Shown here: one piece after another, positions 36,611 to 52,742 of the stretch | Layout: each line of letters starts with the position of its first letter | How positions within the stretch are numbered: position 1 is the stretch's first letter | DNA from: Vulcanimicrobiota bacterium | GTDB taxonomy: Bacteria > Vulcanimicrobiota > CADAWZ01 > Ess09-12 | Length of the DNA stretch: 64,000 nucleotides | Reading direction: 5' to 3' | Assembly (NCBI GenBank): GCA_031082125.1 | Contig: JAVHLM010000003.1 | Span: 288,842 to 352,841 of the forward strand | Notes under the pieces: model-generated | What the model saw: the letters and a program-made list of their open reading frames with translations, nothing else | The model's database searches: none | What the model was told of the DNA's origin: nothing | Program-made: the position numbers and the translations under genes

Positions 36611-36942
36611 ATAATTGGCCTGAAGTCTGATCGGCTTACCCTGCTTCCGAGTAGCCGCTTCAGGCTGATAATGATGGTATGAGGGAGGCAAGCGAGCCAT
36701 GCCCTCATTATGGAAGCAGAGTGTGCAGATACCATGGTGTGTTGAAAGGAGTCTTCATTGCGGTGGGCGAATTTCAGTATTTCAATGCGGTATTCGCCAG
36801 GGCCTTGAAAATATGGCTCTCTATAAAGATACCCGCGTCAATATGCGAAGCCACCTGATAATATCTCTCCCTGCGGGAAAGAATGCCGGCCGCATTTCAT
36901 TGAAAAGCCTGTGTGCACAGACAGTGAGAAGGAGGACCCCTC

Positions 36943-38190
36943 ATGGGAACCAATGAAGGGACAGGAGTCTCTTTCAGAGGGAAAGTCTTCCGCACTCCTA
37001 AAAAGAACCCGGGCAGCCCGCGGCTCATGGAGCCCGAGGAAGCCCTGGAGCTCATGAAACCCTTTCTCAGGAAAACAGGGCTCACGCGCTTTGCGCAGAT
37101 CACGGGCCTTCGAAGCGTGGGCATCCCGGCGGTGAACGCCATAAGGCCCATAAGCCATAACTCATCGGTAACCCATGGAAAAGGCCTCACCCTGGCCCAT
37201 GCCCTGGCCTCGGCAGCAGGGGAGTCCATAGAGCGCTATTGCTGGTTCAACTGTACCGTTCCCGCCTTCAGCAGCACCTATAATGATCTGAAAGAGCGGC
37301 GCACCGTGATCCCCATGGAAAGGCTGGCCCTTTCCAGGTTCTCGCTCTTCAGGCCTGACCTTCCTGAACAGTGGATGCTCGGCTGGGACCTCATGCATGA
37401 CGAGGAGGTGCCGGTGCCTTTTTCATCGGTGAGCAGGTCCGGCACCTGTTTCACCACGGAGCTCCGCTCCTTCCAGAGCACGTCAAACGGCCTCGCCTAC
37501 GGCGTGGACTTCCTGGAGGCCCTCTCTCAGGCAATCGAGGAAGTGGTGGAGCGGGACGCCGTCGCCTGCATGGATATGGCCCTCCTGTCAGGCCGGATAC
37601 CGCTCTCGAAAGTCCGCGTGGACCTCTCCACCATACCTTTCGAGACCATCGGGGGACTCATCGGAAAAATTGAAGAAGCGGGGCTCCTCCCTGTCCTGCT
37701 GGACTGCACTACCGATACGGCGATCCCCGTTTATCACTGCATGCTCCTCGATGACAAGAAATGCTACGTCGGATCAGGGGCGAGCCTGAGCCCCGAGACC
37801 GCCATGGCAAGGGCCTTCACCGAAGCGGCCCTCGCCCACGCCGTGCTGTTCAGCGGGGTGAGAGACGTTTATTTCAGGGACGAGAGGCTTGCAGGCTCGC
37901 TCGTCGATTTCAGGAAGCAGATGGCAGAATCCCTCGAAGCCCCGGCGGAAAGGAGCGCACGTGGCCTTTCCGCCGAAAGGACCGGGTCCTTTGAGGGGGA
38001 CATCGCCGTGATGAAGGATAAACTCCGGGGTGCCGGCATCGACCAGCTCATCGTGATAGACCTTCCAGAGCCAGGCCTCCCGGGGAGCGTGGTAAAGGTG
38101 ACGGCCCCCGGCCTCGAGGGATACCACCATACTATTGCCTATCGTCCGGGCTCCAGGGCTCTCAGCCGCATGAGCGGAGAGCGGCCCTGA
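36943..38190 (+). CDS. YcaO-domain protein (TfuA-associated type; ATP-dependent backbone amide activation)
   Basis: AGGAGG RBS. N-terminal LTRFAQITGLRSVGIPAVNAIRP and the canonical YcaO ATP-binding region GKGLTLAHALASAAGESIERY. Later TTDTAIPVYHCML (TD..IPV motif). Confidence 0.85.
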   Translation: MGTNEGTGVSFRGKVFRTPKKNPGSPRLMEPEEALELMKPFLRKTGLTRFAQITGLRSVGIPAVNAIRPISHNSSVTHGKGLTLAHALASAAGESIERYCWFNCTVPAFSSTYNDLKERRTVIPMERLALSRFSLFRPDLPEQWMLGWDLMHDEEVPVPFSSVSRSGTCFTTELRSFQSTSNGLAYGVDFLEALSQAIEEVVERDAVACMDMALLSGRIPLSKVRVDLSTIPFETIGGLIGKIEEAGLLPVLLDCTTDTAIPVYHCMLLDDKKCYVGSGASLSPETAMARAFTEAALAHAVLFSGVRDVYFRDERLAGSLVDFRKQMAESLEAPAERSARGLSAERTGSFEGDIAVMKDKLRGAGIDQLIVIDLPEPGLPGSVVKVTAPGLEGYHHTIAYRPGSRALSRMSGERP

Positions 38191-38242
38191 AAGCCCGGGG
38201 AACTGCGAAAGCGGTAAGAATATAAAAGAAAGGAGGGATGAC

Positions 38243-38530
38243 ATGTCTTTGGAAAAAGCGAAAGATGCGCTGAAGAAGATCATGAATGATCCGGACTTCA
38301 GCAGGAAGATGATCAATGTGAAGAGTGATCAGGAAGCGATAGAGCTCCTCTCTTCCCATGGCTTCAAGTTTACCAAGGAAGAATTCGAAAAGGCGAAGCA
38401 TGAGATGAGACAGGCTGTTATCAGCGACGCTGAGCTCGCAGGCGTGGCTGGAGGAAGCGACAGCTCCAACAAAACAGCTTATCCGGTTGCGAACAGTGTG
38501 ACAGTCGGAGCGGCGGCGGCTGCTTTCTAG
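38243..38530 (+). CDS. Nif11-type RiPP precursor peptide with Gly-Gly leader cleavage motif
   Basis: AGGAGG 7 nt before the ATG. Leader MSLEKAKDALKKIMNDPDFSRKMINVKSDQEAIELLSSHGFKFTKEEFEKAKHEM is a Nif11-family leader. ELAGVAGG is the double-glycine motif. Predicted core is SDSSNKTAYPVANSVTVGAAAAAF (24 aa). Confidence 0.8.
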   Translation: MSLEKAKDALKKIMNDPDFSRKMINVKSDQEAIELLSSHGFKFTKEEFEKAKHEMRQAVISDAELAGVAGGSDSSNKTAYPVANSVTVGAAAAAF

Positions 38531-38614
38531 AAGGCCATGAAGGGGCACACCGGCATCAGAGCGGTGTGCCCCTCATGAATTCCCATGAAGCCTTACAGGG
38601 CGGGAGGAATGTTC

Positions 38615-40009
38615 ATGAAGTGCGTGATCTTTACAGGGCCGACCCTCTCAAAGGAGGAAGCCCAGCCCTGGCTTGAAGCCATCTATCTGCCTCCCGCCAG
38701 GCAGGGAGACATAATAAGCGCCATATTCACCCACATGCCCGACATCATAGGCATCATCGACGGCGCGTCCTATCCGGACCTGGAAGTATGGCACCGGGAG
38801 CTGCTCTACGCGCTTGAGAACGGCATTGCCGTGTACGGCTCATCGTCAATCGGGGCGCTCCGGGCAGCGGAGCTGGATATCCATGGCATGCAGGGTGTGG
38901 GAAAGATATATGAGGGCCTCAAGGGCATTGAGGTGAGCGACGATGACGAGGTAATGTGCCACTATGAGTGCAGCGGCTCTCACCGGCGCATCTCCGAGCC
39001 CCTGGCGAACATCAGGGCGACTTTTGAGGCCCTCCACAGGGAGCGGCTGATTGACGGGAAGCTTGTGGCGACCCTTCCCGCCCTGGCGAAGTCGCTGCAT
39101 TACAGGAAGCGCACCTTTCAGGCGATCCTGGAAAAAGCCCGCAACGCCGGGGTGCTTTCCGAAAAGCAGGCCGAAGAGCTTCTCAATCATACGAGGTCCT
39201 GTTACGTGGATCTCCAGAAAGAAGACGCGATTGAACTTCTCAAGGCCGTCAAAAAGGCCATGGAGACCGGCGGCAGGGCACCGTACGGGAAGATTGTTGA
39301 CCGTTCCGACGATCTGATCTTCCACGTGGCGAAGTACAGGGACCGCACCATCTCACGTGACGGCGAAGGGGAAGGGCTCCCCCTGTTCTCGCTGGTGGAT
39401 TACATGGTCCTTACCCACCCTGAAGCCGACGAGCTTGCCGTGAGTGCAAAGAACCGTTTCCTGGCGGGAGTGCTTGCCGACATGCTTCACGTTGAGGCAT
39501 CTGACAGGGAGACAGGGGAGGAAGCCCTGACCTTCAGGACGCGCTATGGCCTCGAGGATCAGGAGCGATTCGGAGAGTGGCTTGCCGAAAACGATCTCGT
39601 CGAGGAAGAGTTCAGGCGGCTGATGGAACAGAACGCGAAGATGAAGGCGCTTCATGACTGGCTGAGGGACAAGCTCGGCCAGAGAAAGTTCACAAGGGTC
39701 ATCACCGATGAGCTCATGCTGACGGACCAGTATTCCCGGTGGGTCGGGAAAGCGCTCCTGGCCGAGAAGCTCTATCAGGAGCGCCGCGAGTACGGCGAAG
39801 AGCTCTTGAGCATCGAGGCTCCGGAGAAGCTGGTAAGGGACCACGTGGCGGGGGCTCCAAGGGAATGGCACAGGATCTTCAGGAAGGTCATGGAAGGGAT
39901 GGAGATCACCGATATCATGCTGAAACACCAGCTTGTCAAGGCCAGGATAGAGAGGGAGACGCTGGAAAAGGCGCTGCTGAGGCATCTCGAGCCGGCGGCC
40001 CACGAGTGA
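38615..40009 (+). CDS. TfuA-like protein (YcaO partner for thioamidation) with ~270-aa C-terminal extension
   Basis: MKCVIFTGPTLSKEEAQ...IYLPPARQGDIISA...IIGIIDGASYPDLEVWHRELLYALENGIAVYGSSSIGALRAAEL matches the TfuA domain. The start is taken at 38615 (GGAGG + 7 nt); an alternative ATG is at 38585. Confidence 0.8.
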   Translation: MKCVIFTGPTLSKEEAQPWLEAIYLPPARQGDIISAIFTHMPDIIGIIDGASYPDLEVWHRELLYALENGIAVYGSSSIGALRAAELDIHGMQGVGKIYEGLKGIEVSDDDEVMCHYECSGSHRRISEPLANIRATFEALHRERLIDGKLVATLPALAKSLHYRKRTFQAILEKARNAGVLSEKQAEELLNHTRSCYVDLQKEDAIELLKAVKKAMETGGRAPYGKIVDRSDDLIFHVAKYRDRTISRDGEGEGLPLFSLVDYMVLTHPEADELAVSAKNRFLAGVLADMLHVEASDRETGEEALTFRTRYGLEDQERFGEWLAENDLVEEEFRRLMEQNAKMKALHDWLRDKLGQRKFTRVITDELMLTDQYSRWVGKALLAEKLYQERREYGEELLSIEAPEKLVRDHVAGAPREWHRIFRKVMEGMEITDIMLKHQLVKARIERETLEKALLRHLEPAAHE

Positions 40010-40024
40010 TGAAAGGAGGCTTTT

Positions 40025-41899
40025 ATGACCCGCAAGCCCGTTGATGTGCTGCTTCTCAACCCGCCCCTCAGCCTGCCGATGCCCTATCTGAGCATCCCTG
40101 TCCTTGCCTCGTACCTCAGGTCGCAGGGAATCAGCGTTGCCGCGTACGACGTGAACGGCGAGTTCTATTACCGCTTCATCACAAGAGAAAACGTACGCAG
40201 AGGGATCTCCCACGCGGCGGAGAGGCTCCAGGTGCTCAACGGCAGGGAAGAGCTGCGCTTCACCGAGATGATTGAGTATATCTCCAGTTACTACTACCTC
40301 ACGGAAGTGGAGAAAAACCTCCCCAAGGTCACGGCCTATCTTTTCCCCTTCTCGGACTGGAAACTGCTCCAGCAGCTTGATATCGACAAGCTTTTGATGA
40401 CCCTCGCAACTCTCCCTTATTTCCCGGAGATCCTGGTCACAAAGCCCCAGTTCATGTACACAAGCCCTTACTATGAGTTCTCATCGAAAGAGATTATGGA
40501 GAGCACAGGCCATGAGAGCTTTTATTCCGCCGCGGTGAGGGAGATCATGGAAGATCTCCTCAGTGAGTATGACCCGAAACTCATCGGTATCTCGCTCGCC
40601 TTCAGCGTACAGGCCCTTCCCGCATTCCTGATGGCGCGGTTCATCAAGGAGATTAGGCCTGAGTGCCACCTCACCATAGGGGGGACCTTCGTCTCATCGT
40701 ACATGCGCAGCCTCAGGGACGACACGCTCTTCCGCCATGTGGACAGCTTCGTGCTTGACGAGGGGGAGTTCCCTCTTGTGCAGCTTTTGAGGGAGTACGC
40801 CGGGGGAAAGCCCGACCTCAGAAAGGTTCAGAACCTCATCTTTGCCGAGAAGGGAGAGGTGATCTATACCGGGCCTGCCGAGCCCTTTGACCTGGAGAAG
40901 TCCTCCGCGCCTGACTACGGGGTTTTCCCCCTTGAGAAGTACACGGTGCCCCGCGAGGACCTCATGATACTCTTCAGGATCGCGAGGGGCTGTCCCTGGC
41001 AGAAGTGCACCTTCTGCAGGACCGACATCCCCCAGTGCAGCAACTTCCAGCAGCCCTCACCGGAGCTGCTCTATGAACAGTTCCGGGAGGTAGTGAAACA
41101 GACGGGGGCGCGCCGCTATTACTTCACCTCCGACAGCGCCGATCCGCTGGTTCTGGAATATTTTGCAAGGAGAATCATTGACGACGGCTTGAAAATAGAC
41201 TGGTACTGCCACACCCGTGTTGACCTGAGGCTTACCAGGGAGCGCTGCGAGCTTTACGGGAAATCAGGGTGCACCGGCATCTATCTCGGTGTTGAGACCT
41301 TCAACGACAGGATACTGAAACTGATGAACAAGGGCATCACTTCTGAGTGTGCAGACCGGGTCCTCCGCCAGGTTGAAGGCGCCCTGGACCTCCGCCTCTA
41401 CATGATGGTGGGCTTCCCCGGCGAGACCAGAGAAGAGGCCCTTGAAGACTTCCGCAGAGTGCAGGAATATCTGAAGCTCGGCCTTATCAAGGACTACCAC
41501 TTCTCACCGGTGCAGATACTGCAGGGCTCCGCCATGTACCGGGACCTCGAAAAATACGGCATCACCAGCCTCATCACCACCGAGGGGGCCGATCTCGAGG
41601 GCGAGGTAAGCAACTTCACAAGCAGCGGGATGTCGCTGCAGCAGGTCATCGAATTTTTCCAGCAGTACGCTGCCGACCGCAGCAAGATCTTCCCGGAGTT
41701 CTTCTCCTCGGAGGGCCGGGAGCACCGGAGCCTCCGGATCAATGGCCGCGAGGTGGAGGCTGCCTTTGACATCGCTCAGATCGTGAGGACGGTGGACAGC
41801 CTCTGGGAGTTCGCGTACCTCACCAAGTCAAGATGGCTGGCCCTCGGCGAGAGCCGCATCGCCCCCCTGAAGCCCATGCTCACCGGGATGAGGCAGTGA
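40025..41899 (+). CDS. B12-binding-domain radical SAM protein, paralog 1 of 3
   Basis: N-terminal B12-binding Rossmann region (VDVLLLNPPLSLPMPYLSIPVLASYLRSQGISVAAYD). Cys cluster ARGCPWQKCTFCRTD has CX4CX2C spacing, checked against the DNA frame. About 620 aa. Confidence 0.8.
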   Translation: MTRKPVDVLLLNPPLSLPMPYLSIPVLASYLRSQGISVAAYDVNGEFYYRFITRENVRRGISHAAERLQVLNGREELRFTEMIEYISSYYYLTEVEKNLPKVTAYLFPFSDWKLLQQLDIDKLLMTLATLPYFPEILVTKPQFMYTSPYYEFSSKEIMESTGHESFYSAAVREIMEDLLSEYDPKLIGISLAFSVQALPAFLMARFIKEIRPECHLTIGGTFVSSYMRSLRDDTLFRHVDSFVLDEGEFPLVQLLREYAGGKPDLRKVQNLIFAEKGEVIYTGPAEPFDLEKSSAPDYGVFPLEKYTVPREDLMILFRIARGCPWQKCTFCRTDIPQCSNFQQPSPELLYEQFREVVKQTGARRYYFTSDSADPLVLEYFARRIIDDGLKIDWYCHTRVDLRLTRERCELYGKSGCTGIYLGVETFNDRILKLMNKGITSECADRVLRQVEGALDLRLYMMVGFPGETREEALEDFRRVQEYLKLGLIKDYHFSPVQILQGSAMYRDLEKYGITSLITTEGADLEGEVSNFTSSGMSLQQVIEFFQQYAADRSKIFPEFFSSEGREHRSLRINGREVEAAFDIAQIVRTVDSLWEFAYLTKSRWLALGESRIAPLKPMLTGMRQ

Positions 41900-43794
41900 T
41901 GAAGAAAGAAGCAGAGGTGCTCCTCATCAATCCCCCCTTCGCAGAGCCGCGGCCCTATATCAGCATCCCCACGCTTGTTTCATATCTTGAGTCCCGGGGC
42001 ATCCGCACCGCGGCATATGATCTCAACTGCGAGTTTTTCTACCGCTTTCTCACAAGGGAGAGGATCCGCAGGGGCATAGAATATGTTTCGGAGAGGTTCC
42101 TCGAGCTTAACGGCAGAGATGAGCTCGCCTTCAGGGAGATGCTTGAATACACGGTATGCTGCGATTTGCTCAGGGACATGGAGGAGCACCTGGGGAAGCT
42201 CACCCTGGCGCTCCTGCCTTTTTCAGATTTCCAGATACTCAGGAGCCTGGAGCTTGAGAGCCTGCTCAGCGGCCTCACGACAGCCCCCTATTTTCCCGAG
42301 CTCCTGATCTCGAAGCCCCAGTTCACTTATGCAAGCCCCTATTTCGAGTACTCCACGGCCGACATCGCGGAGAGCACGGGCCATGAGAGCTTTTATTCCG
42401 CCCTCTTAAGAGAGATAATCGCTGAAATACTCGACGAGTATGAGCCCAGGGTGGCGGGCATCTCAATAGTGCTCACAGAGCAGGTGGTGCCTGCTTTCCT
42501 TGCGGCACGCATCATCAAGGAGTTGAAGCCTGACCTTCATGTAACGGTCGGCGGGCCCTTTGTCTCCACTTATCTGAAGGATCTCAAGAACACGGTGCTC
42601 TTTGATTACGTGGACAGCCTGGTCTTTGACGAGGGTGAGCTCCCCCTCGAGCAGCTCGCCAGGGAGCTCGCGGGCACGAAGCCCGACCTCGGGAGAGTGC
42701 AGAACCTCGCATATCTGAAAAACGGGAGCCTTGTATCCACTCCCCCGGCAGAAACACTTCCTGCCGAGGCATCGCCTCCTCCCGACTACAGGGCCCTTCC
42801 CCTGGACAGGTATCTTGTCTCAGAAAGAAACGCCGAGATGCTCTTCAGGCTCTCGAAGGGATGCTCGTGGCACCGCTGCACCTTCTGCAGGACCGACATC
42901 GCGATGTGCCGGGAATACCGGCAGGCCCCTCATTCCTTCGTCTATGAGAGCCTGCTCGAGGTCATCAGGGACACGGGGTGCGGCAGGTTCCGCTTTACCA
43001 GCGAAGATTCTGACCCGCTGCTCCTTGAGCATATCTCGAAGAGGCTCCTGGAAGACGGCATATCCATAAAGTGGCGATGCCACGCACGCGTTGACGCGCG
43101 GTTCACCAGGGAGCGCGGCGAGCTCTACCGCAAGGCGGGGTGCACGAGCCTTTACCTCGGCGTGGAATCTTTCAGCGACAGGATCCTGCGCATGATGAAC
43201 AAGGGGATTACCTGCGGGCTCATTGACAGGGTCCTCACAGAGCTCGGCGGCGGCGTTCCCGTGCGCCTCTATATGATGGTGGGATTTCCGGGGGAGACTG
43301 AAGAAGAGGCGCTCGCCGGGTACGGGAAGGTGCGCTCCCTTCTTGAGCAAGGCCTTATCGGCGACTATAAGTACTCTATCTTCGAGATGCAGTCAGGATC
43401 AGAAGTGGGGGAGCACCCGGAGCGTTTCGGCCTCAGTGATCTTAGCCGTTACCCGCGCTCGGACCTGCCCTCTGAGATACTGGAGTTCGAAAGCAGAGGG
43501 ATGCCCAGGGAACGGGCTCTCATGCTGGCCGCAGAGTTCGAGAAAAACAGGAGAGAGTGGGATCCCCAGCTGGACAGGGTCTGTGAGCGCTATGAAGAGA
43601 CGGTTGAGCACGTCACTGTGAAGGGAGACCCCGTGGAGGTGAGGTTCAACGTCAAGGAGATACTGGAGAGAATGGCCCATTCCACGGGGCTCTATTTCCT
43701 CCCCCGGATCGGGGAATGGATACGGTACGGGGAACAGCATATCACCCCTGTCAGGGCTGCCCGCCGGGCGTCGCAGCCGCTCAGCACTGTATGA
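41899..43794 (+). CDS. B12-binding-domain radical SAM protein, paralog 2 of 3
   Basis: ATGA overlap with paralog 1. SKGCSWHRCTFCRTD. Collinear similarity to paralog 1 throughout (for example SPYYEFS/SPYFEYS, ESTGHESFYSA in both, YMMVGFPGET in both). Confidence 0.8.
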   Translation: MKKEAEVLLINPPFAEPRPYISIPTLVSYLESRGIRTAAYDLNCEFFYRFLTRERIRRGIEYVSERFLELNGRDELAFREMLEYTVCCDLLRDMEEHLGKLTLALLPFSDFQILRSLELESLLSGLTTAPYFPELLISKPQFTYASPYFEYSTADIAESTGHESFYSALLREIIAEILDEYEPRVAGISIVLTEQVVPAFLAARIIKELKPDLHVTVGGPFVSTYLKDLKNTVLFDYVDSLVFDEGELPLEQLARELAGTKPDLGRVQNLAYLKNGSLVSTPPAETLPAEASPPPDYRALPLDRYLVSERNAEMLFRLSKGCSWHRCTFCRTDIAMCREYRQAPHSFVYESLLEVIRDTGCGRFRFTSEDSDPLLLEHISKRLLEDGISIKWRCHARVDARFTRERGELYRKAGCTSLYLGVESFSDRILRMMNKGITCGLIDRVLTELGGGVPVRLYMMVGFPGETEEEALAGYGKVRSLLEQGLIGDYKYSIFEMQSGSEVGEHPERFGLSDLSRYPRSDLPSEILEFESRGMPRERALMLAAEFEKNRREWDPQLDRVCERYEETVEHVTVKGDPVEVRFNVKEILERMAHSTGLYFLPRIGEWIRYGEQHITPVRAARRASQPLSTV

Positions 43795-45629
43795 AAAAAC
43801 CTGTTGACGTGCTTCTCATCAATCCTCCCTTCTCAAGGCCCGATGAGCCTGTGATAGGCATCGCCACCCTCGCGGCATATCTCAAGACGAGGCAGATCAC
43901 TGTCGAGGCGAAAGATGCAAGCCTCGAGCTCTTTCGCAGAACAGTAACGAATGACTGCATCAATGAAGAGAGAGCCTATGCCGGAGAGAGGTTCACGGAG
44001 CTCAACGGCAGAAGCGTTCTCGACTTCTGCGGGATCTATGAGTACGTGAGGCTCTTTTCCCTGCTTCTGCGCCTGCAGGGGCTTCAGGGCATCTTTGATG
44101 ATGCCGGGGGGGATCTCTGGGAAAAGCTCAGGCATGCAAGCGACACGGTGAGGTCCTCGTTTCTCGAGCTTGCCACGGCATCGTTCTTTCCCCGCTTCAT
44201 ACTCTATGGAGGCCCGCCGACCTTCAGCTGCCACTCTCCTTACCACCACTTCTCCAAAGCCGACATACTCGCTTCCCTTGACGATCCCGCCTGGTACTCC
44301 GAGGCGCTCGAGAATACTATTGCACTGTACTTTGAGGAGATGAGCCCGCGGATCGCCGCAATCTCGGTGTCATACTTTAACCAGATTATTCCGGCCTTTC
44401 AGTGCGCCCGCATCATAAGAAGGATTGCGCCGGGTGTCCATATCAGCATGGGAGGATCGGCGGTCCAGATATTTTTTCGGAAGGTGAGGGATACCGGGCT
44501 CTTCGCCATTGTTGACACCATTGCCACCGGAGACGGCGAGGCGACGCTCGAGGCGCTCTCACGAGAGCTTCAGAGGAAGTCAGCCTCACTGGAGGCGGTG
44601 CCAGGAATCATCTACCTGTCAGGCACGATGGTGAAAAAAAATGACCCGGCGCCGCCCCTTCCTGTTGAAGGCCTCTCCCTCCCCGATTACAGGGCCTTCC
44701 CCCCGGAAGACTTCATGGCCGGCCCCGAGGCAATGCGCTTGCCCCTGAGGCTCTCGAAGGGGTGCTCCTGGGGCAGGTGCTCCTTCTGCCGGACCGAGCT
44801 TTCCATGATAAAAGCGTACCAGGCGCCGACGGCGGGGCGCCTCTTCCCGATGGTCACCGATTTCATCATTGCCACGGGGTGCCGGAAGATCCACTTTGCC
44901 GACGAGTCAATTGATCCCGAAGCCCTGGAGGAGATCTCGAAAGAGCTCATCGGCAGGGAACTCACCCTTGACTGGAACTTTCAGACGAGAATCAACAGAA
45001 AGATCACTGAGAGGCGCTGCAGGCTCTTCAGGGAGGCGGGATGCTCGGCCATCTCCTTCGGTGCAGAATCCTTCAGCGACAGGGTCCTTGGCCTGATGAG
45101 CAAGGGCATCACGGCAGAGCTCATAGAAAAGGTGCTCTATGAGGCCGGGAGCGTTCTGCCTGTCACCATCTTCATGATGGTGGGCTTCCCCGGCGAGACC
45201 GAAGAGGAAGCGAGGGAGAGCTTCAGGAAAGTCCGGGAGCTTGCCCGGGCAGGAGTGATCCGCGATTATATCTACTCCCCCTTCATTATCCACTCAGGCT
45301 CTGCAATGATGGCGGAGCCGGGGCGCTACGGCATCACCGAGCTGCACCACGGTCCTGGAGAAGACCTTTCACCTGATATCATCGATTATCAGTGCACCGG
45401 CATGGCAAGGGAAAAAGCCAGGGAGCTCTTCATCGAGTTTTCCCGGAGCCAGGCAGGCCGCCGGCCCTGGCCGCCGGAGGTCAGGATAGGAAAAAATACC
45501 GTTCCGCGGAGGTTTGACGTGGAAGAAATGATGGGGATCATTGCCCGGGAGACCTCCATGCGCCCTGCGATGCCCCTCTACCGCCTGATCATCACGGCAG
45601 AAGCGTCGCTTGCTCCTGAATCCATATGA
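43791..45629 (+). CDS. B12-binding-domain radical SAM protein, paralog 3 of 3
   Basis: ATGA overlap with paralog 2. SKGCSWGRCSFCRTE. The family block FMMVGFPGETEEEA is shared. Confidence 0.8.
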   Translation: MKKPVDVLLINPPFSRPDEPVIGIATLAAYLKTRQITVEAKDASLELFRRTVTNDCINEERAYAGERFTELNGRSVLDFCGIYEYVRLFSLLLRLQGLQGIFDDAGGDLWEKLRHASDTVRSSFLELATASFFPRFILYGGPPTFSCHSPYHHFSKADILASLDDPAWYSEALENTIALYFEEMSPRIAAISVSYFNQIIPAFQCARIIRRIAPGVHISMGGSAVQIFFRKVRDTGLFAIVDTIATGDGEATLEALSRELQRKSASLEAVPGIIYLSGTMVKKNDPAPPLPVEGLSLPDYRAFPPEDFMAGPEAMRLPLRLSKGCSWGRCSFCRTELSMIKAYQAPTAGRLFPMVTDFIIATGCRKIHFADESIDPEALEEISKELIGRELTLDWNFQTRINRKITERRCRLFREAGCSAISFGAESFSDRVLGLMSKGITAELIEKVLYEAGSVLPVTIFMMVGFPGETEEEARESFRKVRELARAGVIRDYIYSPFIIHSGSAMMAEPGRYGITELHHGPGEDLSPDIIDYQCTGMAREKARELFIEFSRSQAGRRPWPPEVRIGKNTVPRRFDVEEMMGIIARETSMRPAMPLYRLIITAEASLAPESI

Positions 45630-45645
45630 CAGGGAGGAGAAAAAC

Positions 45646-46746
45646 GTGTTCACAGAAAAGAGCCGCCTTTCCCTCAAGAGAACCATATACTCGGTGATGC
45701 TTGACGGCAAAGATCTCGTGCTTCTTTGCACCCCCTGCGAGCCCGTGGTGCTGAAGGAGCTCTCACCTTTCAGAAGGGAACTCCTCATTCTGCTTGACGG
45801 GAGGCGCACCGCGGGAGAGATCATGCAGGAGCTGAACGCGCGGGGCCATCGGTGCATTTTCAGCAAGGTGAGGGAAGAGCTTGATCGGCTCGATGAGTGG
45901 CTCCTTCTGGAAGAGGAGGGTGATGCTCCTTTGCCGGAGGATACAGAGCATGCGGGGCGTAACGACCGCACGCGCCTGTGGTTCGCCGCCAGGAGGACCT
46001 CAGGTGCCTCCTTTGCCCGCCAGGCAGAGAGAGATCTCCAGTCGGCCCATATCGTCCTCTTCGGCCTGGGAGGGCTGGGCTCGCAGCTCTTCACCCAGCT
46101 CCTGCTGACAGGCATCGGTGAGATCACCGCCGTTGACTGCGAGAAGGTGGAGGAGAGCAACCTGAACAGGCAGAGCCTCTTCTACGAGAGCAACGTGGGC
46201 CGCCTGAAGACGGAGGCTGCGGCGGAGCGGGCCCGGCTGATGAACAGCTCAGCATCCATTCATTTTGTGGATAAGAGAATCGCCTCGGCTGGAGACTTCG
46301 CCTCACTGATGGCCCCTGCGAGCCTGGCGCTCCTCGCCGCCGATACTCCCCGCGACATGATATTCGACTGGATGAACGAGGCCAGTTACACGACAGGCGT
46401 GCCGGTGCTCTACAGCAACGGTGTCCTCCAGTCCTCCATGGGGATCGGCCCGCTGGTGATCCCTGGCAGGACGGCGTGCTATCAGTGCTCGATGCCCGAA
46501 GGCGCCCGTTTTGAAGACCCCCTCGTGGAGCAGATCAACAGGCGGCACTGCCACGGGGTGATACTCCCTCCTCTTGCCATGTGCGCGGGTCTTATGGTGC
46601 TTGAGCTCGTGAGGCATCTCACTGGATGCGAACCCTGCCGGATTTATGACCGCAGGCTTCACATGGACTTCAGAAATTACCGGATGTGGTTCCAGGATAT
46701 AGAAAAGCGCCGGAGCTGCCCTTTCTGCGAACAGAGAGCGCCATGA
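45646..46746 (+). CDS. E1-like (ThiF/MoeB/HesA-family) protein with N-terminal PqqD-like RRE domain
   Basis: GGGAGGAG + 6 nt + GTG start. The N-terminal ~90 aa (YSVMLDGKDLVLL...ELLILLDGRRTAGEIMQELNARG) resemble RiPP recognition elements. E1 Rossmann motif IVLFGLGGLGSQLF...ITAVDCEKVEESNLNRQ. Paired CxxC zinc motifs (CYQC...CPFC). Confidence 0.75.
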   Translation: MFTEKSRLSLKRTIYSVMLDGKDLVLLCTPCEPVVLKELSPFRRELLILLDGRRTAGEIMQELNARGHRCIFSKVREELDRLDEWLLLEEEGDAPLPEDTEHAGRNDRTRLWFAARRTSGASFARQAERDLQSAHIVLFGLGGLGSQLFTQLLLTGIGEITAVDCEKVEESNLNRQSLFYESNVGRLKTEAAAERARLMNSSASIHFVDKRIASAGDFASLMAPASLALLAADTPRDMIFDWMNEASYTTGVPVLYSNGVLQSSMGIGPLVIPGRTACYQCSMPEGARFEDPLVEQINRRHCHGVILPPLAMCAGLMVLELVRHLTGCEPCRIYDRRLHMDFRNYRMWFQDIEKRRSCPFCEQRAP

Positions 46747-46807
46747 CAGGCTGCAGGCTCCCCGCCGGTGAATTGGCGCCCGGCAGGCTTCCTGAGGTGT
46801 GCCTTGG

Positions 46808-49711
46808 CTAGGTGAGCTGGCGGTCCGCCAGCTTCCTGAAGGTGCCCTCGACGCTCATGAGCTCTTTGAAGGTGCCTGCCTGCACGATCCTCCCTTTCTC
46901 CAGCACATAGATCCTGTCGGCCTTCACCACGGTGCTGAGCCTCTGTGCTATTACTATCTTTGTGGCCTTGAGAGTGAGAAGCTGTTCCGTCACCACGCTC
47001 TGGACCCTGTTGTCAAGAGAGCTCGTCGCTTCATCGAAGAGCAGTATTCTCGGCTTTTTCGCCAGGGCCCGGGCTATCAGGAGCCTCTGCTTCTGGCCTC
47101 CTGAGAAAGTCTGTTCCCCTTCCATGACCACGGTGTGCATTCCCATCGGCATGGCCTTGATATCCTGGTCTATGCCGGCTGTCCTTGCTGCCTCCCACGC
47201 GTCATCGAGGGAGAGCTCCACCGAGCCCGAGATGTTGGAAAAGATATCGCCGGCCATCAGCTCGCTTTTCTGCAGCACTGCTCCAATCTGGCTCCTCACG
47301 GCCGAGATGTCGAGGGTCCCGAGGTCTCTCCCGTCATAGTAAAGGGCCCCCTGCTCGGGCGCCTCAAAGCCGAGGAGGCACCTGAAAAGGGTTGATTTCC
47401 CTGATCCCGAGGGCCCCACGAAGGCAATAAACTCGCCGGGCTTCGCCTGGAAGGTGACGCTCTTCAGCACCATGGGACCGTCGGTCCTGTAACGGAAAGA
47501 GAGATTGCTCGCCTCCACGGCACCATGGAGCTCGCCGGGGTCAAGCTTCTCCTCGTCAACCTCCTGTAATGCCTCAAATATAGGCTTCATCCTGTCGTAG
47601 AGGGGAACGCTCCTTACGAGCTCCCCCGCAATGGCACCCAACTGGATCATGGCGGCAAGAAACCCGGTGAAGGCGGCGTTGAAAGCGAGAAAATTCCCCA
47701 GGCTCATGGAGGTCCCTCCGATGACCTCAGCGTTATGCTCCATGGTGGCGGCGAGAGCAAAAATTGCGCCTGCGGACAGGAGAGGGAGCATTGAGGTGAA
47801 GACCTCGAGACGGGCGCCCACAAGGCCGGCTTTATAGGAAAAGTTTTTCTGACGCGAGAACTTCCCGGCCCATTCTGAAAAAGCGAGAGCCTGTGCCCCT
47901 GCTATCTTTATCTTGCCGATCCCTTTCACAAGGTCAAAGACGAAGCCATAGAGCTGTCCCTGGATATTGATCTCTCTGCGGGCGAGGGAAAGCTGGAGAG
48001 AGCTGGCAAGAATAATCGCCGCGAGCAGTGCCAGGGCAAAGAGAGCGGCAGTTATTGCAAGACTGCTCTGATAATAGAAAAGGATCAGAAAGCTGAAGGA
48101 GGCATAGATCGCCCCCTGTATGGCCGGTAAGGCAAGGCCCTCGAAGAACTGGCTCATGATGGAGTCGAAGCCCAGGGAGCGCATGGCGAGATCACCTGAC
48201 GAGTACCTGTTGAAGAAAGCGCAGGGCAGGGCCATGAGCCGATCCCACAGGGCGCACTGGATGACGCCCTTGGCCGTTCCTTCCATCCTGAGAAAAGCAA
48301 CACCCTGGGTAAACTGAAAGACTGCCACCGCAAGAGAGCCCGCCAGAAGGGCCACGGAGAGCTGCACCAGGAGGGGCATCTCCCTTTCCGGGACTATCAA
48401 GTCAAAGATTATCCCCGTCGCCACAGGAATAAGCAGGCCGAATAACCCCATTGCCATCGCCACAAAAACCGATACCTTCATGTCGGATTTAAGCAGCGGC
48501 AGGCTGATGAGCAGGATATCCCGTAGGGAAAGAGGTTTATTGGGAAAGGGCCTGTAGAGCATGTAAGCCTTAGTATCAATGGAGGCGGCTCTCTCCCTGT
48601 CAACAGGAAACTCGGAAATTTCACCTGAAGCAACCCCCTTATAGCGTCCTTTACAAGGCAGAAGAGCCAGAGGCTTCCCCGATTCCTTGAGAAAACCGAC
48701 CATGGGCCCCCTTTCCCTCTTCCACCAATCACCTTCGAGGGTGACTCTCCGCGTCCTCACCTTTGACGCTCTTGAAATGGCCGAAAGAGAGAGGGGTGGA
48801 GCATTCTCCCCATGCGAAGCAGGAGGCTCTTTCAGCGTGAAATGCATATATTCAGCCACACGCCGGCAAGCGTTGAAAAGAGGCGATTCGCCGGAAGGCG
48901 CCTCCTCCCCGGGTGAGCCTGCCTTCTCCGTTGATGAGGCGAGATAATGGAGGGCTTTACTCAATACCTGGCCCTCATGCTGCCTCCTCTGCTCAATGGT
49001 CTCCGATTCCCTGCGCTCCTGCCCGTCCATCGAATGGCCGATGGCGCAGAGCACCGCCCTGTGAAACGCGCTGAGCCCGGCAAGCTCCCGGTCTTCCGCG
49101 ACGTAGTGGGCGGTAGTCAATGACTTCAGCCTTGAGGGCTCGCGGCATGATGCCCATCCAAGGCGGGAGAGGGGGAAGTATGAGCCGGAAAGGGCGCATG
49201 GCTCTCCATCGATGCCCATAAATGCCGAGGCCCCTTCCCGGTGTGAGATCCACAGGACGGGAGCGAGTGAGCTGATGGCGTCATCCTTCTCAGCGAGGTA
49301 CTCTTCACCTTCGGTGAGAAGCCTCAGCTTTCTTGGAAGTGATGCCGTTCTGAGAAGCCCCCTCGAAAGCGCCTCGATCCATCGGTCAGCAAGAGGGACA
49401 AGCTCCGCGCCAACTGCTGAGATACTTGTCTCTTGGAGCTCTGTCCCGTTTTCGCCCACGGCGAGGAGTGCGATGCCCTGAAAGGGCTCGAAACCGAAGA
49501 GAGCCTCATCCTTCTCAATTGTGCAGACATAATGACGGTATGAGGCCGCGCCGCCATGCCTCACGGCAAAGATATTGACACGGTTTTTCCTCACTATCCA
49601 GACAGACCCCGTTCCTTCGGCAAAAAAAGGCTCATTTCCGCCGACGGCTCTTCTGCCTTCAGGTCTGTTGCTCTCGTTTCTGCCGTCTCCTTCCATGCTC
49701 CGCTCCCTCAA
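46808..49711 (-). CDS. ABC transporter permease/ATP-binding protein with ~420-aa N-terminal cytoplasmic extension (NHLM/Nif11 bacteriocin-export type, non-peptidase subunit)
   Basis: C-terminal half has six TM helices and an NBD (Walker A GPSGSGKST, signature FSGGQKQRL, Walker B ILLFDEAT). The N-terminal 420 aa have no C39 Cys/His motif and no recognised domain. Confidence 0.75.
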   Translation of the reverse strand: MRERSMEGDGRNESNRPEGRRAVGGNEPFFAEGTGSVWIVRKNRVNIFAVRHGGAASYRHYVCTIEKDEALFGFEPFQGIALLAVGENGTELQETSISAVGAELVPLADRWIEALSRGLLRTASLPRKLRLLTEGEEYLAEKDDAISSLAPVLWISHREGASAFMGIDGEPCALSGSYFPLSRLGWASCREPSRLKSLTTAHYVAEDRELAGLSAFHRAVLCAIGHSMDGQERRESETIEQRRQHEGQVLSKALHYLASSTEKAGSPGEEAPSGESPLFNACRRVAEYMHFTLKEPPASHGENAPPLSLSAISRASKVRTRRVTLEGDWWKRERGPMVGFLKESGKPLALLPCKGRYKGVASGEISEFPVDRERAASIDTKAYMLYRPFPNKPLSLRDILLISLPLLKSDMKVSVFVAMAMGLFGLLIPVATGIIFDLIVPEREMPLLVQLSVALLAGSLAVAVFQFTQGVAFLRMEGTAKGVIQCALWDRLMALPCAFFNRYSSGDLAMRSLGFDSIMSQFFEGLALPAIQGAIYASFSFLILFYYQSSLAITAALFALALLAAIILASSLQLSLARREINIQGQLYGFVFDLVKGIGKIKIAGAQALAFSEWAGKFSRQKNFSYKAGLVGARLEVFTSMLPLLSAGAIFALAATMEHNAEVIGGTSMSLGNFLAFNAAFTGFLAAMIQLGAIAGELVRSVPLYDRMKPIFEALQEVDEEKLDPGELHGAVEASNLSFRYRTDGPMVLKSVTFQAKPGEFIAFVGPSGSGKSTLFRCLLGFEAPEQGALYYDGRDLGTLDISAVRSQIGAVLQKSELMAGDIFSNISGSVELSLDDAWEAARTAGIDQDIKAMPMGMHTVVMEGEQTFSGGQKQRLLIARALAKKPRILLFDEATSSLDNRVQSVVTEQLLTLKATKIVIAQRLSTVVKADRIYVLEKGRIVQAGTFKELMSVEGTFRKLADRQLT

Positions 49712-51917: not shown

Positions 51918-52742
51918 CTAAAACCTGACTGGAAGCATGAGGGAGAGCGGCGTCACCGTTTTCAAGATAACGGTGGCGGAGCAGGGAGTGACATTGCTGA
52001 TCTTGATGGCGGGCCCCCTGCCTGACGACCACTTGTAGCCGCTCACGGTGGAGGCATCCCTGGTGGGGATGGCGCGGATTCCGATCTTCGGGGTTCCTTT
52101 CAGGCAGATCTCTGCCAGGGTCTCATTATGGACTTTCCTCATCACCTCGGCCCTGGTGACAGGAAACTCCGTGATGCCGGCGACCTTCCCGTAAATGAAG
52201 CCGAAGTCCTGCCTGTTCACCGTCGAGGGGGATATCAGAATGTCCATGCCGGGCGTTACAAGCTTTCCGTTCTCCATTGAAATGAAAATGACGGCATCTA
52301 TTTCTGAAGTTTCGGCCTGAACGGTCCCGAAGGTTTCTTCCTGCCTTATGAAGTTACCCTCGTCAAAAGGGAGCGATACGAGAATTCCCGTCATGGGGCT
52401 TTTGATTTCGAAGGCATCGCCGCCGGAGGAATCGGTCCTTCGCACCCTTGCGAGCACCTGGTCCCTTGTAACCCGATCTCCCTGCTTCACCGGCAGGCAT
52501 TCTATGGTTCCTGCCAGGCCGGCGATGATTCCTTTCATTTCCCCCATGCCCAGCAGCATTCCCTCTCCGCTTATGGTGATGGGAATTCTTCCAAAAATCA
52601 GCCACAGGATCGCGAAGAGTATAAGGACCCCTGAGGCGGCGAGGGCAAGCCACCCCCTGGAGCTTACAATGGTGACGCACTGGTCGAGCTGCTCCGGCGA
52701 GGTGAGCTTCTGTAAGGCCTCTTTCCTGTATATCTCCCTCAT
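51918..52742 (-). CDS. HlyD-family membrane-fusion/secretion protein (bacteriocin export accessory)
   Basis: MREIYRKEALQKLTSPEQLDQ then a single TM helix and a beta-barrel/lipoyl-like periplasmic domain. It lies immediately upstream of and is co-oriented with the two ABC genes. Confidence 0.75.
   Translation of the reverse strand: MREIYRKEALQKLTSPEQLDQCVTIVSSRGWLALAASGVLILFAILWLIFGRIPITISGEGMLLGMGEMKGIIAGLAGTIECLPVKQGDRVTRDQVLARVRRTDSSGGDAFEIKSPMTGILVSLPFDEGNFIRQEETFGTVQAETSEIDAVIFISMENGKLVTPGMDILISPSTVNRQDFGFIYGKVAGITEFPVTRAEVMRKVHNETLAEICLKGTPKIGIRAIPTRDASTVSGYKWSSGRGPAIKISNVTPCSATVILKTVTPLSLMLPVRF

What the first reader, a model, noticed from the sequence alone, without database searches (positions are those of the whole stretch)
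40025..45629. Three tandem, translationally coupled B12-binding radical SAM paralogs with non-canonical CX4CX2C cluster motif
The three ~620-aa paralogs are joined by ATGA start/stop overlaps (41897-41901 and 43791-43794). All three share GC(P/S)W(Q/H/G)(K/R)C(T/S)FCRT(D/E), which has four residues between the first two Cys. This was checked codon by codon for paralog 1. The unlinked B12-radical-SAM at 19950-21356 has canonical CPFHCKFC. An extra residue in the [4Fe-4S]/SAM-binding loop is rare. A triplicated enzyme suggests iterative or position-specific modification (for example multiple C-methylations or epimerisation-like chemistry) of the Val/Ala-rich core.
Basis: seen in the sequence. 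Interest (0 to 1): 0.8.

Follow-up and report, generated by a model that had tools for sequence, protein, structure and literature searches.

The report
Three cobalamin radical-SAM enzymes, peptide cluster
Three neighbouring genes encode vitamin-B12-dependent radical SAM enzymes that most likely decorate a small secreted, sulfur-modified peptide; their one-residue-longer iron-sulfur motif is real but is a known, widespread variant, so this is an uncharacterised member of a known kind, not an anomaly.

Summary
Three co-directional paralogs (624, 631 and 612 aa; 33-46% identical) lie at 40025-45629. They are joined by a 1-nt TGATG overlap and a 4-nt ATGA overlap. All three carry GCxWx(K/R)C(T/S)FCRT, which is CX4CX2C.

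The motif is not an assembly artefact. It is the only invariant Cys triad in 31 relatives and is present in all 24 related genes in eight independent loci. The cobalamin domain is present but split by an insert of about 120 aa.

The motif is not a rarity for this enzyme class:
- OxsB, whose structure is solved, uses CX4CX2C.
- GenD1, a C-methyltransferase, uses it too.
- 135 of the 146 newly retrieved closest cluster representatives have it.
- At least 554 loci in species-representative genomes have it.

The genes sit in a conserved peptide gene cluster: YcaO, Nif11 precursor, long TfuA, rSAM a/b/c, an MccB/PaaA-like E1 enzyme, and an NHLP-type exporter. This cluster family was already noted by genome mining. 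A Desulforegula relative (Tha-1) gave only one thioamide in E. coli.

The three paralogs form three orthologous groups that keep their gene order, which implies distinct roles. The most likely role is site-specific C-methylation of the Ala-rich core, but this is untested.

Verdict: new member of a known kind, of moderate interest.

The parts
36943..38190 (+). YcaO (415 aa), the predicted ATP-dependent backbone-activating enzyme for thioamidation
   Evidence: Pfam YcaO E 4e-58. The closest NCBIfam model is the McrA-glycine thioamidation YcaO TIGR03266, at 156 bits, below its cutoff of 365.
38243..38530 (+). Nif11-leader precursor peptide (95 aa). The leader ends ...AGVAGG and the predicted core is SDSSNKTAYPVANSVTVGAAAAAF.
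   Evidence: TIGR03798 scores 54.3 bits against a cutoff of 32.3. About 45 family members share the GG site and an Ala-rich C-terminus. It is the only such ORF in the window.
38585..40009 (+). Long TfuA (474 aa): a TfuA domain plus a C-terminal extension of about 235 aa with no family match
   Evidence: Pfam TfuA E 5e-35. NF033432 scores 198.7 bits against a cutoff of 235.2. The C-terminal part has no Pfam hit. Lengths of 459-474 aa are conserved in relatives.
40025..41899 (+). rSAM paralog a (624 aa), a cobalamin-dependent radical SAM enzyme
40160..40522 (+). All-helical insert of about 120 aa (aa 46-166 of paralog a) that splits the B12-binding Rossmann domain after its second strand. The equivalent insert is present in paralogs b and c.
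   Evidence: The native Pfam B12-binding match covers only profile positions 41-120. Deleting the insert extends the match to positions 11-120 and lifts the score above the gathering threshold for paralogs a and b. The model shows helices at 43-132.
40991..41017 (+). CX4CX2C codons of paralog a (C323-P-W-Q-K-C328-T-F-C331)
   Evidence: These are the only invariant cysteines in A3. They align to the OxsB CDYSRCTFC motif.
41897..41901 (+). TGATG junction: the stop of paralog a and the start of paralog b overlap by 1 nt
41899..43794 (+). rSAM paralog b (631 aa)
   Evidence: Orthologs L001_b and L009_b are 66-75% identical.
42862..42888 (+). CX4CX2C codons of paralog b (C-S-W-H-R-C-T-F-C)
43791..43794 (+). 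ATGA junction: the start of paralog c overlaps the stop of paralog b by 4 nt
   Evidence: A similar overlap is present in L003 and L009.
43791..45629 (+). rSAM paralog c (612 aa)
   Evidence: Orthologs L001_c and L009_c are 63-75% identical.
44763..44789 (+). CX4CX2C codons of paralog c (C-S-W-G-R-C-S-F-C)
45610..46746 (+). E1-like adenylating enzyme (ThiF fold) with an N-terminal domain of about 120 aa. It resembles the peptide-modifying enzymes MccB and PaaA more than ThiF or MoeB. The start codon is uncertain.
   Evidence: Pfam ThiF E 6e-39. PDB profile search: MccB E 3.5e-41, PaaA E 3.3e-30 including the N-terminus, ThiF/MoeB about 1e-22. Conserved downstream of rSAM c.
46808..49711 (-). 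NHLP-type bacteriocin export ABC permease/ATPase
   Evidence: TIGR03797 scores 823.8 bits against a cutoff of 709.4.
49716..51914 (-). NHLP-type export ABC transporter with a C39 peptidase domain (cleaves the leader after GG)
   Evidence: TIGR03796 scores 1013.7 bits against a cutoff of 853.3.
51918..52742 (-). NHLP bacteriocin system secretion (HlyD-like) protein, a short form
   Evidence: TIGR03794 scores 218 bits against a cutoff of 156.2, mainly over profile positions 253-417.

Best explanation
The three ORFs encode class B (cobalamin-dependent) radical SAM enzymes from a large, uncurated clade. Two features mark the clade: a CX4CX2C [4Fe-4S]/SAM loop like that of OxsB and GenD1, and an all-helical insert of about 120 aa that splits the B12-binding Rossmann domain.

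They are tailoring enzymes of a Nif11-leader RiPP. The proposed pathway is:
1. The 95-aa precursor is thioamidated in its backbone by YcaO plus the long TfuA.
2. Each of the three rSAM paralogs modifies unactivated C-H positions in the Ala/Thr/Val-rich, poly-Ala-ended core. Each reductively cleaves SAM at the CX4CX2C cluster to make a 5'-deoxyadenosyl radical, abstracts a hydrogen atom from the peptide, and quenches the substrate radical with a methyl group from methylcobalamin.
3. The MccB/PaaA-like E1 enzyme probably activates a carboxylate of the peptide.
4. The C39-ABC/ABC/HlyD module cuts after GG and exports the product.

Shown here: domain identity, conservation of the motif, conserved synteny, and orthology of the three paralog lineages.

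Inferred: that the peptide is the substrate, that the chemistry is methyl transfer, and that each paralog has its own site or sites.
For: Enzyme identity:
- Radical_SAM Pfam E 1e-14 to 1e-17.
- The split B12 domain is restored above or near the gathering score once the insert is removed.
- The GG motif (G219-G220) is invariant among 31 relatives. In the GE motif, G247 is invariant and E248 is at least 90% conserved. These are the Cbl motifs defined in PMC9204698.

Motif:
- CX4CX2C is the only invariant Cys triad and aligns to the cluster cysteines of solved enzymes.
- OxsB uses CX4CX2C to bind the cluster. GenD1, with Cx4Cx2C, is a cobalamin-dependent C-methyltransferase.

RiPP context:
- The order YcaO, Nif11 precursor, TfuA, rSAM a/b/c, E1 is conserved in the window, L001, L003/L004 and L009/L010.
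- Related clusters hold 2, 4 or 5 such rSAMs.
- Three orthologous groups keep their order.
- The closest NCBIfam models are peptide or phosphinate methyltransferases: TIGR03975 (RiPP C-methyltransferase) and PhpK.
- PoyB/PoyC and BotRMT1-3 show that several B12-rSAM methylases can each serve their own sites on one RiPP. ApyD is a RiPP beta-methylase.
- In Tha-1, a relative with the same type of precursor, one thioamide was detected experimentally.
Against: - No member of this clade has a demonstrated activity.
- All curated family scores are far below their cutoffs: 92-120 bits against 281.85 for TIGR03975, and 87-115 against 600 for PhpK.
- The best Foldseek match, OxsB, is not a methyltransferase in its main reaction.
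- In the Tha-1 experiment no methylation was seen when the cluster's rSAM was co-expressed in E. coli. The main text mentions no cobalamin supply, and the methods were not checked for it, so this is weak negative evidence.
- Which residues are modified is unknown.
Confidence: 0.6

Rival explanations
1. They are cobalamin-dependent rSAMs acting on the peptide, but they catalyse non-methylating chemistry. Examples are C-C cross-linking or cyclisation, cyclopropane formation from aliphatic side chains, or an OxsB-like rearrangement.
For: OxsB, the top Foldseek hit and the solved enzyme that shares CX4CX2C, is a ring-contraction enzyme. Reviews list non-methylase Cbl-rSAMs such as BchE, HpnJ and OxsB. 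[quoted passage not shown] BchE is among the NCBIfam hits. A B12-rSAM that forms cyclopropylglycine in a RiPP is known (my own knowledge).
Against: Most characterised Cbl-rSAMs, and all characterised RiPP-associated ones retrieved here (PoyB/C, BotRMT1-3, ApyD, MgmA), are methylases. GenD1, which has the same motif, is a methylase. Identity to OxsB is only 14-18%.
Confidence: 0.25
2. Only one paralog is catalytic. The others are degenerate copies serving as scaffolds or peptide-binding partners.
For: The rSAMs have no recognisable RRE domain. Something must therefore bind the Nif11 leader, and paralogous pseudo-enzymes are a common solution.
Against: All three keep the Cys triad, the GG/GE cobalamin motifs, and every one of the 24 invariant family positions. 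Each lineage is conserved at 58-75% identity with its orthologs, as expected for active enzymes.
Confidence: 0.07
3. They are peptide epimerases or other redox-neutral hydrogen-atom-abstracting enzymes, as the first reader suggested as an alternative.
For: Proteusin-type (NHLP/Nif11) pathways often include rSAM epimerases (my own knowledge). The core is rich in small aliphatic residues.
Against: The known RiPP epimerases lack a B12 domain (my own knowledge). Here the cobalamin motifs are invariant, which argues that the cofactor is used.
Confidence: 0.04
4. The CX4CX2C spacing is a sequencing or assembly indel, or a different Cys triad binds the cluster.
For: None found.
Against: The same spacing is found in all three genes, in 24 of 24 genes from the window and related loci assembled from independent samples, in 135 of the 146 newly retrieved closest cluster representatives, and in 554 genome loci. 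No other cysteine is invariant.
Confidence: 0.01

Closest known systems
OxsB (oxetanocin A biosynthesis; PDB 5ul2/5ul3/5ul4)
   Same: It is a cobalamin-dependent rSAM with an N-terminal Rossmann B12 domain, a radical SAM barrel and a C-terminal domain. Its cluster-binding loop is CX4CX2C (CDYSRCTFC) with a basic residue before the second Cys. It is the best Foldseek match, E 4e-17 over 678 columns.
   Different: Identity is only 14-18%. Its substrate is a nucleotide and its reaction is a ring contraction, and it is not in a RiPP cluster. According to the literature, OxsB's extra domain is N-terminal rather than an insert inside the B12 domain (my own reading, not tested).
GenD1 (gentamicin C-methyltransferase)
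   Same: It is a cobalamin-dependent rSAM with a Cx4Cx2C motif and demonstrated C-methylation.
   Different: Its substrate is an aminoglycoside.
PoyB/PoyC family (TIGR03975, RiPP maturation radical SAM C-methyltransferase) of NHLP/Nif11 proteusin clusters
   Same: It is the best or second-best NCBIfam hit. The enzymes are B12-rSAMs encoded beside NHLP/Nif11-leader precursors with the same NHLP export module. Several paralogs methylate aliphatic side chains of one peptide.
   Different: Scores are 92-120 bits against a cutoff of 281.85, so these proteins are not members. Whether bona fide TIGR03975 members carry CX4CX2C could not be established. A near-member, P0060 (192 bits), does carry it.
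BotRMT1-3 of bottromycin biosynthesis
   Same: Three B12-rSAM methyltransferases in one RiPP cluster each methylate amino-acid side chains. Two further points come from my own knowledge and were not checked here: each BotRMT serves its own residue or residues, and the bottromycin cluster also contains YcaO enzymes.
   Different: The precursor has a follower peptide instead of a leader, the YcaOs make an azoline and an amidine rather than a thioamide, and the host is an actinomycete. No sequence comparison was done here.
Tha-1 cluster of Desulforegula conservatrix (Malit 2021 Fig. 4D; Ayikpoe 2022)
   Same: It has the same precursor family: Nif11 leader, VAGG site, and cores ASATWVTVGVTSVGAAATCGW and ASGTWVAVGAGAAGAAAACGW. 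It encodes YcaO, TfuA, an 'rSAM methyltransferase' and ThiF. One thioamide was found experimentally.
   Different: The genes listed for the Tha-1 construct include one rSAM, a glycosyltransferase and ThiS. The core is of the Trp-containing subtype. The window cluster has three rSAMs, no glycosyltransferase and no ThiS.
Methyl-coenzyme M reductase modification enzymes (YcaO-TfuA thioglycine; MgmA/QCMT glutamine C-methylase)
   Same: The YcaO and TfuA here are closest to the McrA-glycine thioamidation families. MgmA (9ccb) is among the top structural matches. In both systems a thioamide and B12-rSAM C-methylation are placed on one polypeptide.
   Different: All scores are below the equivalog cutoffs. 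The substrate here is a small leader-bearing exported peptide, not an enzyme subunit.

Membership tests
Radical SAM superfamily (PF04055) | Pfam Radical_SAM domain above the gathering score | tested here: met
   64.2, 52.5 and 56.2 bits against a gathering score of 29.5.
Radical SAM superfamily (PF04055) | Three-Cys loop that ligates the SAM-binding [4Fe-4S] cluster (canonically CX3CX2C) | tested here: met
   The spacing is CX4CX2C. C323, C328 and C331 are the only invariant cysteines in 31 relatives. They align to the cluster cysteines of CysS, MgmA and OxsB. Actual ligation was not measured.
Class B / cobalamin-dependent radical SAM enzymes | N-terminal Rossmann-type B12-binding domain (PF02310) | tested here: met
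Class B / cobalamin-dependent radical SAM enzymes | Base-off cobalamin motifs GG and GE in the B12 domain (as defined in PMC9204698) | tested here: met
   G219, G220 and G247 are invariant, and E248 is at least 90% conserved.
Class B / cobalamin-dependent radical SAM enzymes | Cobalamin is actually bound and used | not testable with these tools
   This needs purified protein (UV-vis, LC-MS of the cofactor).
TIGR03975 rSAM_ocin_1 (PoyB/PoyC-type RiPP C-methyltransferases) | Whole-protein score at or above the curated cutoff of 281.85 bits | tested here: not met
   92.7, 94.5 and 120.2 bits.
TIGR03975 rSAM_ocin_1 (PoyB/PoyC-type RiPP C-methyltransferases) | Encoded next to an NHLP/Nif11-leader precursor and its export system | tested here: met
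   Precursor TIGR03798 at 54.3 against 32.3. TIGR03796, TIGR03797 and TIGR03794 are all above their cutoffs.
TIGR04479 PhpK family P-methyltransferases | Score at or above 600 bits | tested here: not met
   115.4, 87.6 and 87.2 bits.
NF050148 ApyD (RiPP Tyr beta-methylase) | Score at or above 750 bits, with an N-terminal RRE | tested here: not met
   41.7-50.1 bits. No RRE was detected by Pfam in the N- or C-terminal parts.
YcaO-TfuA thioamidated RiPP clusters ('thioamitide-like') | Adjacent YcaO and TfuA genes with a precursor peptide | tested here: met
   Pfam YcaO E 4e-58 and TfuA E 5e-35, flanking the Nif11 precursor. The McrA-specific equivalog cutoffs are not reached.
YcaO-TfuA thioamidated RiPP clusters ('thioamitide-like') | A thioamide is present in the product | not testable with these tools
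   It has been shown only for the relative Tha-1 in E. coli.

The most novel reading that the evidence does not exclude
The three paralogs (2 to 5 in sister clusters) install a type of modification not yet seen in ribosomal peptides on the invariant Gly/Ala-rich, poly-Ala-ended core. One possibility is C-alpha methylation of Ala or Gly, giving Aib-like residues as in peptaibols. Another is iterative beta-methylation that builds Abu, Val or tert-Leu from Ala. Combined with a backbone thioamide and a carboxylate activated by the MccB/PaaA-like enzyme, this would define a new class of membrane-active RiPPs. The CX4CX2C loop and the insert in the B12 domain would then be adaptations of a peptide-specific enzyme clade.
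Probability: 0.15. Interest if true: 0.75.

Novelty: new member of a known kind. Interest (0 to 1): 0.42.

Why it matters
No enzyme of this CX4CX2C, split-B12-domain clade has a known reaction, yet the clade is large. The family profile finds 14,957 cluster representatives at E <= 1e-30, though that count also includes canonical CX3CX2C enzymes. A defined peptide substrate sits next to three orthologous lineages of the enzyme, which gives a tractable entry point. Co-expression with cobalamin supply would reveal what the clade does and why several copies are needed. The product would be a thioamidated, probably multiply C-alkylated, Ala-rich exported peptide from poorly studied phyla (Eremiobacterota, Nitrospirota, Desulfobacterota). 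Its structure and activity are unknown. The motif itself does not open a new question, because the OxsB structure already shows how CX4CX2C binds the cluster.

Tried and rejected
- Assembly-indel explanation: rejected on comparative grounds.
- Alternative Cys triad: none exists.
- 'No cobalamin domain': rejected after the insert-deletion test and the fold matches.
- Sigma-70 promoter and terminator scan of 36400-47000: counts equal chance, so it is uninformative.
- Second precursor gene in the window: none.
- ThiS-like ORF ending in GG: none convincing. This weakens my first idea that the ThiF-like gene only feeds sulfur to TfuA. The PDB profile search instead points to MccB and PaaA.
- Pfam scans of the rSAM N-terminal 172 aa, the rSAM C-terminal 123 aa and the TfuA C-terminal 235 aa: nothing significant.
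- Whether true TIGR03975 (PoyB/C) members carry CX4CX2C:
  - The PoyC paper is not held.
  - A search seeded with the near-member P0060 returned only its own unnamed family.
  - The question remains open.
- Foldseek against AFDB50: the library was unavailable.
- Literature searches for a characterised YcaO/TfuA + Nif11 + B12-rSAM pathway: only the two genome-mining papers were found.

Full report
**Observation**

The region holds three + strand ORFs: 40025-41899 (624 aa), 41899-43794 (631 aa) and 43791-45629 (612 aa). The longer ORFs that the mechanical list gives for the second and third genes begin at upstream in-frame ATGs. The conserved N-termini (MTRKPVDVLLLNPP, MKKEAEVLLINPP, MKKPVDVLLINPP) fix the real starts.

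Read directly from the DNA, the first junction (41897-41901) is TGATG, a 1-nt stop/start overlap. The second junction (43791-43794) is ATGA, a 4-nt overlap.

The paralogs are 46% and 34% identical to the first over their whole length. All three carry GCxWx(K/R)C(T/S)FCRT(D/E), which is CX4CX2C. The unlinked B12-rSAM at 19950-21356 on the minus strand has the canonical CPFHCKFC.

**Is the motif the real cluster site, and is it an artefact?**

- In an alignment of the three paralogs with 28 relatives, C323, C328 and C331 are the only invariant cysteines. C416 is at least 90% conserved but is not part of a triad.
- HMMER aligns the loop to the cluster loops of solved enzymes. Against CysS (rgcpyq-ctyc) and MgmA (rgcpg-nctfc) it places a one-residue gap. 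Against OxsB (rgcdysrctfc) it places no gap.
- All 24 rSAM genes of this type in the window and in related loci, assembled from independent samples, have the same spacing.
- The first 36 database hits, and 38 of the first 39, have it as well. More distant B12-rSAMs are mostly CX3CX2C, with a few exceptions such as P0060.

An assembly indel or an alternative triad is excluded.

**Is there a cobalamin domain?**

Pfam B12-binding matches all three proteins only below threshold (24.7, 28.3 and 19.5 bits against 32.1), and only over profile positions 41-120. The N-terminal VLLxNPP strand looked like the missing start of the Rossmann fold, so I removed residues 46-166 in silico. The match then extends to profile positions 11-120 and the scores rise to 35.1, 36.1 and 29.6 bits. 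The B12 domain is therefore intact but split, after its second strand, by an insert of about 120 residues. The AlphaFold model shows this insert as all-helical (helices 43-132).

The GG motif (G219-G220) and the GE motif (G247-E248) are the motifs that a review of solved Cbl-rSAM structures identifies as cobalamin motifs. G219, G220 and G247 are invariant, and E248 is at least 90% conserved, in the family.

The model is confident (pLDDT 91.2, pTM 0.91).
- Foldseek ranks OxsB first (E 4e-17, 678 aligned columns), then MgmA, CysS and TokK.

**How unusual is CX4CX2C?**

It departs from the superfamily consensus, but it is documented and common in this subclass.
- GenD1, a cobalamin-dependent C-methyltransferase of gentamicin biosynthesis, has Cx4Cx2C (PMC4340712).
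- RadicalSAM.org lists a megacluster with this spacing (PMC9477430).
Of these, 554 were confirmed as relatives, spread over Bacteroidota, Nitrospirota, anammox Planctomycetota, Gammaproteobacteria, Myxococcota and archaea.
- A profile search of 1.84 billion cluster representatives found 14,957 proteins at E <= 1e-30. Of the 146 new proteins among the best 150, 128 have C.W..C.FC and 7 a looser CX4CX2C. The 11 with CX3CX2C are all long multi-module fusions.
- A separate family of 119 proteins around P0060 is uniformly RGCPWKRCTFCPDE.

The residue before the second Cys is almost always K, R or Q, and OxsB has R there. Most CX4 proteins carry the motif near residue 290-345, whereas most canonical relatives carry it near residue 140-270. 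This is consistent with the insert and the longer loop travelling together. None of the seven genome-derived CX4 proteins tested reaches any curated NCBIfam cutoff. The clade is large but uncurated and, as far as I could find, uncharacterised.

**Context**

The three genes lie in a co-directional block.
- YcaO, 36943-38190.
- A Nif11-leader precursor, 38243-38530. The leader ends AGVAGG and the core is SDSSNKTAYPVANSVTVGAAAAAF.
- A 474-aa TfuA, 38585-40009.
- rSAM a, b and c.
- A ThiF-fold enzyme, 45610-46746.
- Convergent to the block: the complete NHLP-type export set, all above curated cutoffs. It comprises TIGR03797, TIGR03796 (with its C39 peptidase domain) and TIGR03794.

The same gene order recurs in independent metagenome contigs: L001, L003/L004 and L009/L010. 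Sister clusters differ as follows.
- L007 and L011 have two such rSAMs plus a GT4 glycosyltransferase and an APS kinase.
- L005 has four rSAMs.
- L008 has five rSAMs plus a sulfotransferase and two precursors.

Clustering of all these rSAMs shows that the window's a, b and c each group with the a, b and c genes of L001, L003 and L009. Identity is 58-75% between orthologs and 33-47% between paralogs. The triplication is therefore old, and each copy has been kept in place. This is the pattern expected for enzymes with distinct, non-redundant tasks. A natural fusion of two CX4 modules (P0198, 1411 aa) points the same way.

**The substrate family**

A profile of eight precursors retrieved about 45 more.
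- They share the Nif11 leader and a (V/I)(A/S)GG cleavage site.
- The core is 17-25 residues long and rich in Gly, Ala, Val, Ser and Thr.
- Most cores follow SSA(A/T)W..VGAG..GAAAAA(A/L/F).
- The subtype served by the a/b/c + E1 cluster follows (D)..(T/S)AA.P.A.S.TVGAAA(A/S/M)AF or GDDTTTAAAFSAAAGATAAASAF.
- The invariant part is the Ala-rich C-terminus. Val is absent from some cores that are served by orthologous a/b/c enzymes.

**Prior knowledge of the cluster family**

Malit et al. 2021 (PMC8120280) show a Desulforegula cluster family with a Nif11-related precursor, TfuA-YcaO, B12-domain rSAM, MoeB/ThiF and GT4. They suggest 'a possible methylation'.

Ayikpoe et al. 2022 (PMC9576775) refactored that cluster as Tha-1. 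Its precursors end VAGG|ASATWVTVGVTSVGAAATCGW and VAGG|ASGTWVAVGAGAAGAAAACGW. Its genes are YcaO, TfuA, a glycosyltransferase, an 'rSAM methyltransferase', ThiS and ThiF. They observed one thioamide in E. coli and no further modification. Those cores clearly belong to the precursor family found here.

Thioamidation thus has experimental support in a relative, while the rSAM chemistry remains unknown. The main-text passages read do not mention cobalamin supplementation, and the methods were not checked. The ApyD study shows that supplementation can matter for B12-rSAMs in E. coli.

**Mechanism proposed**

Shown: these are Cbl-dependent rSAMs with an OxsB/GenD1-type cluster loop, encoded in a conserved thioamide-RiPP operon as three orthologous lineages.

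Inferred:
1. Each enzyme binds the leader-bearing precursor.
2. It cleaves SAM reductively at the CX4CX2C cluster.
3. It abstracts a hydrogen atom from an sp3 carbon of the core.
4. It transfers methyl from methylcobalamin.
5. Each paralog has its own site or set of sites.

The precedents are PoyB/PoyC and BotRMT1-3, where several B12-rSAM methylases act on one ribosomal peptide, together with ApyD, MgmA and GenD1.

I put this reading at 0.6. The main rival, at 0.25, is non-methylating Cbl-rSAM chemistry, since OxsB is the top Foldseek neighbour and is not primarily a methylase. Degenerate, non-catalytic copies are unlikely, because every invariant family position is kept in all three. Epimerisation is unlikely, because the cobalamin motifs are conserved.

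**Membership**

The proteins meet the tests for the radical SAM superfamily and for the class B architecture. They fail the curated cutoffs of TIGR03975, PhpK and ApyD. They should be described as working like RiPP B12-rSAM C-methyltransferases, not filed as PoyB/C family members. P0060 is a near-member of TIGR03975, with 192 bits over the full profile, and it carries CX4CX2C. This hints that the PoyB/C family may share the loop, but I could not confirm it.

**Verdict**

The finding is real and correctly read at the sequence level. Its headline, a rare non-canonical motif, dissolves on comparison: the loop is a known, structurally explained and very widespread variant. What remains of interest is a conserved, partly explored thioamide-RiPP family. 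In it, two to five members of an uncharacterised Cbl-rSAM clade act on an Ala-rich core.

Novelty: new member of a known kind. Interest: 0.42.

Noticed in passing
window 45610-46746 (+): The 'ThiF' gene downstream of rSAM c matches the peptide-modifying E1-like enzymes MccB (E 3.5e-41) and PaaA (E 3.3e-30, including its N-terminal clamp). These matches are much better than those to ThiF or MoeB (about 1e-22). The window holds no ThiS-like ORF. It may adenylate a carboxylate of the precursor rather than feed sulfur to TfuA. The start codon (TTG 45610, which overlaps rSAM c by 20 nt) is uncertain.
   Followed up: partly
window 38585-40009 (+): TfuA is 474 aa. The TfuA domain ends near residue 224, and the C-terminal 235 aa or so match no Pfam family. 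The same long form (459-474 aa) is kept in the related clusters.
   Followed up: partly
window 40160-40522 (aa 46-166 of paralog a; equivalent in b and c): An all-helical insert of about 120 aa splits the B12-binding Rossmann domain at the loop where classical B12 proteins carry DxHxxG. Here the sequence is D42-V-N-G. Its function is unknown, and it may bind the leader peptide, since no RRE was detected.
   Followed up: partly
window 52911-54398 and 54385-55752 (-): A pair of overlapping M16 (insulinase-like) peptidase genes lies directly upstream of the NHLP HlyD/ABC genes on the same strand. They may belong to the cluster, for example in leader degradation or a second cleavage.
   Followed up: no
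window 19950-21356 (-): A second B12-rSAM (468 aa) with the canonical CPFHCKFC motif lies unlinked to the cluster, next to the window's lowest-GC stretch (GC 0.45 at 20-22 kb). Its best NCBIfam hits are BchE and HpnJ, both below their cutoffs.
   Followed up: no
L027 10010-11944 and about 50 other loci (L019-L092): A very widespread single-copy CX4CX2C family with the signature (A)HGCYWxKCxFCDxSLDY (640-750 aa) occurs in Bacteroidota, Gammaproteobacteria, Betaproteobacteria and others. In Shewanella kaireitica it sits between HlyD-like and AcrB-like efflux genes, with no precursor nearby among the larger ORFs checked. No curated family claims it.
   Followed up: partly
P0196, P0197, P0204, P0227, P0248, P0249, P0254, P0259, P0324: These giant proteins of 1,300-2,331 aa contain three to five B12-rSAM modules, each with a canonical CX3CX2C motif. 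P0198 (1,411 aa) fuses two CX4CX2C modules. They may be real polyproteins or merged gene calls.
   Followed up: no
L005, L007, L008, L011: Sister clusters add a GT4 glycosyltransferase and an APS kinase, or a sulfotransferase. They hold 2, 4 or 5 CX4CX2C rSAMs, and L008 has two precursors. This suggests glycosylated or sulfated variants of the same peptide family.
   Followed up: no
L001 6701-9992: In this otherwise syntenic contig, TfuA is called as two genes (101 + 358 aa) and rSAM a as two (231 + 380 aa). This reflects either frameshifts from decay or assembly errors.
   Followed up: no
window 51918-52742 (-): The NHLP HlyD-like gene is only 274 aa. It matches mainly the C-terminal part (positions 253-417 of 421) of TIGR03794, although it scores above the cutoff. 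It is either a short form or has a mis-set start.
   Followed up: no
window 31084-34509 (+): A 1,141-aa TPR protein lies upstream of typA, with its best hit to the FxSxx-COOH system TPR protein (173 bits, below the cutoff of 300). Any relation to the cluster is unknown.
   Followed up: no
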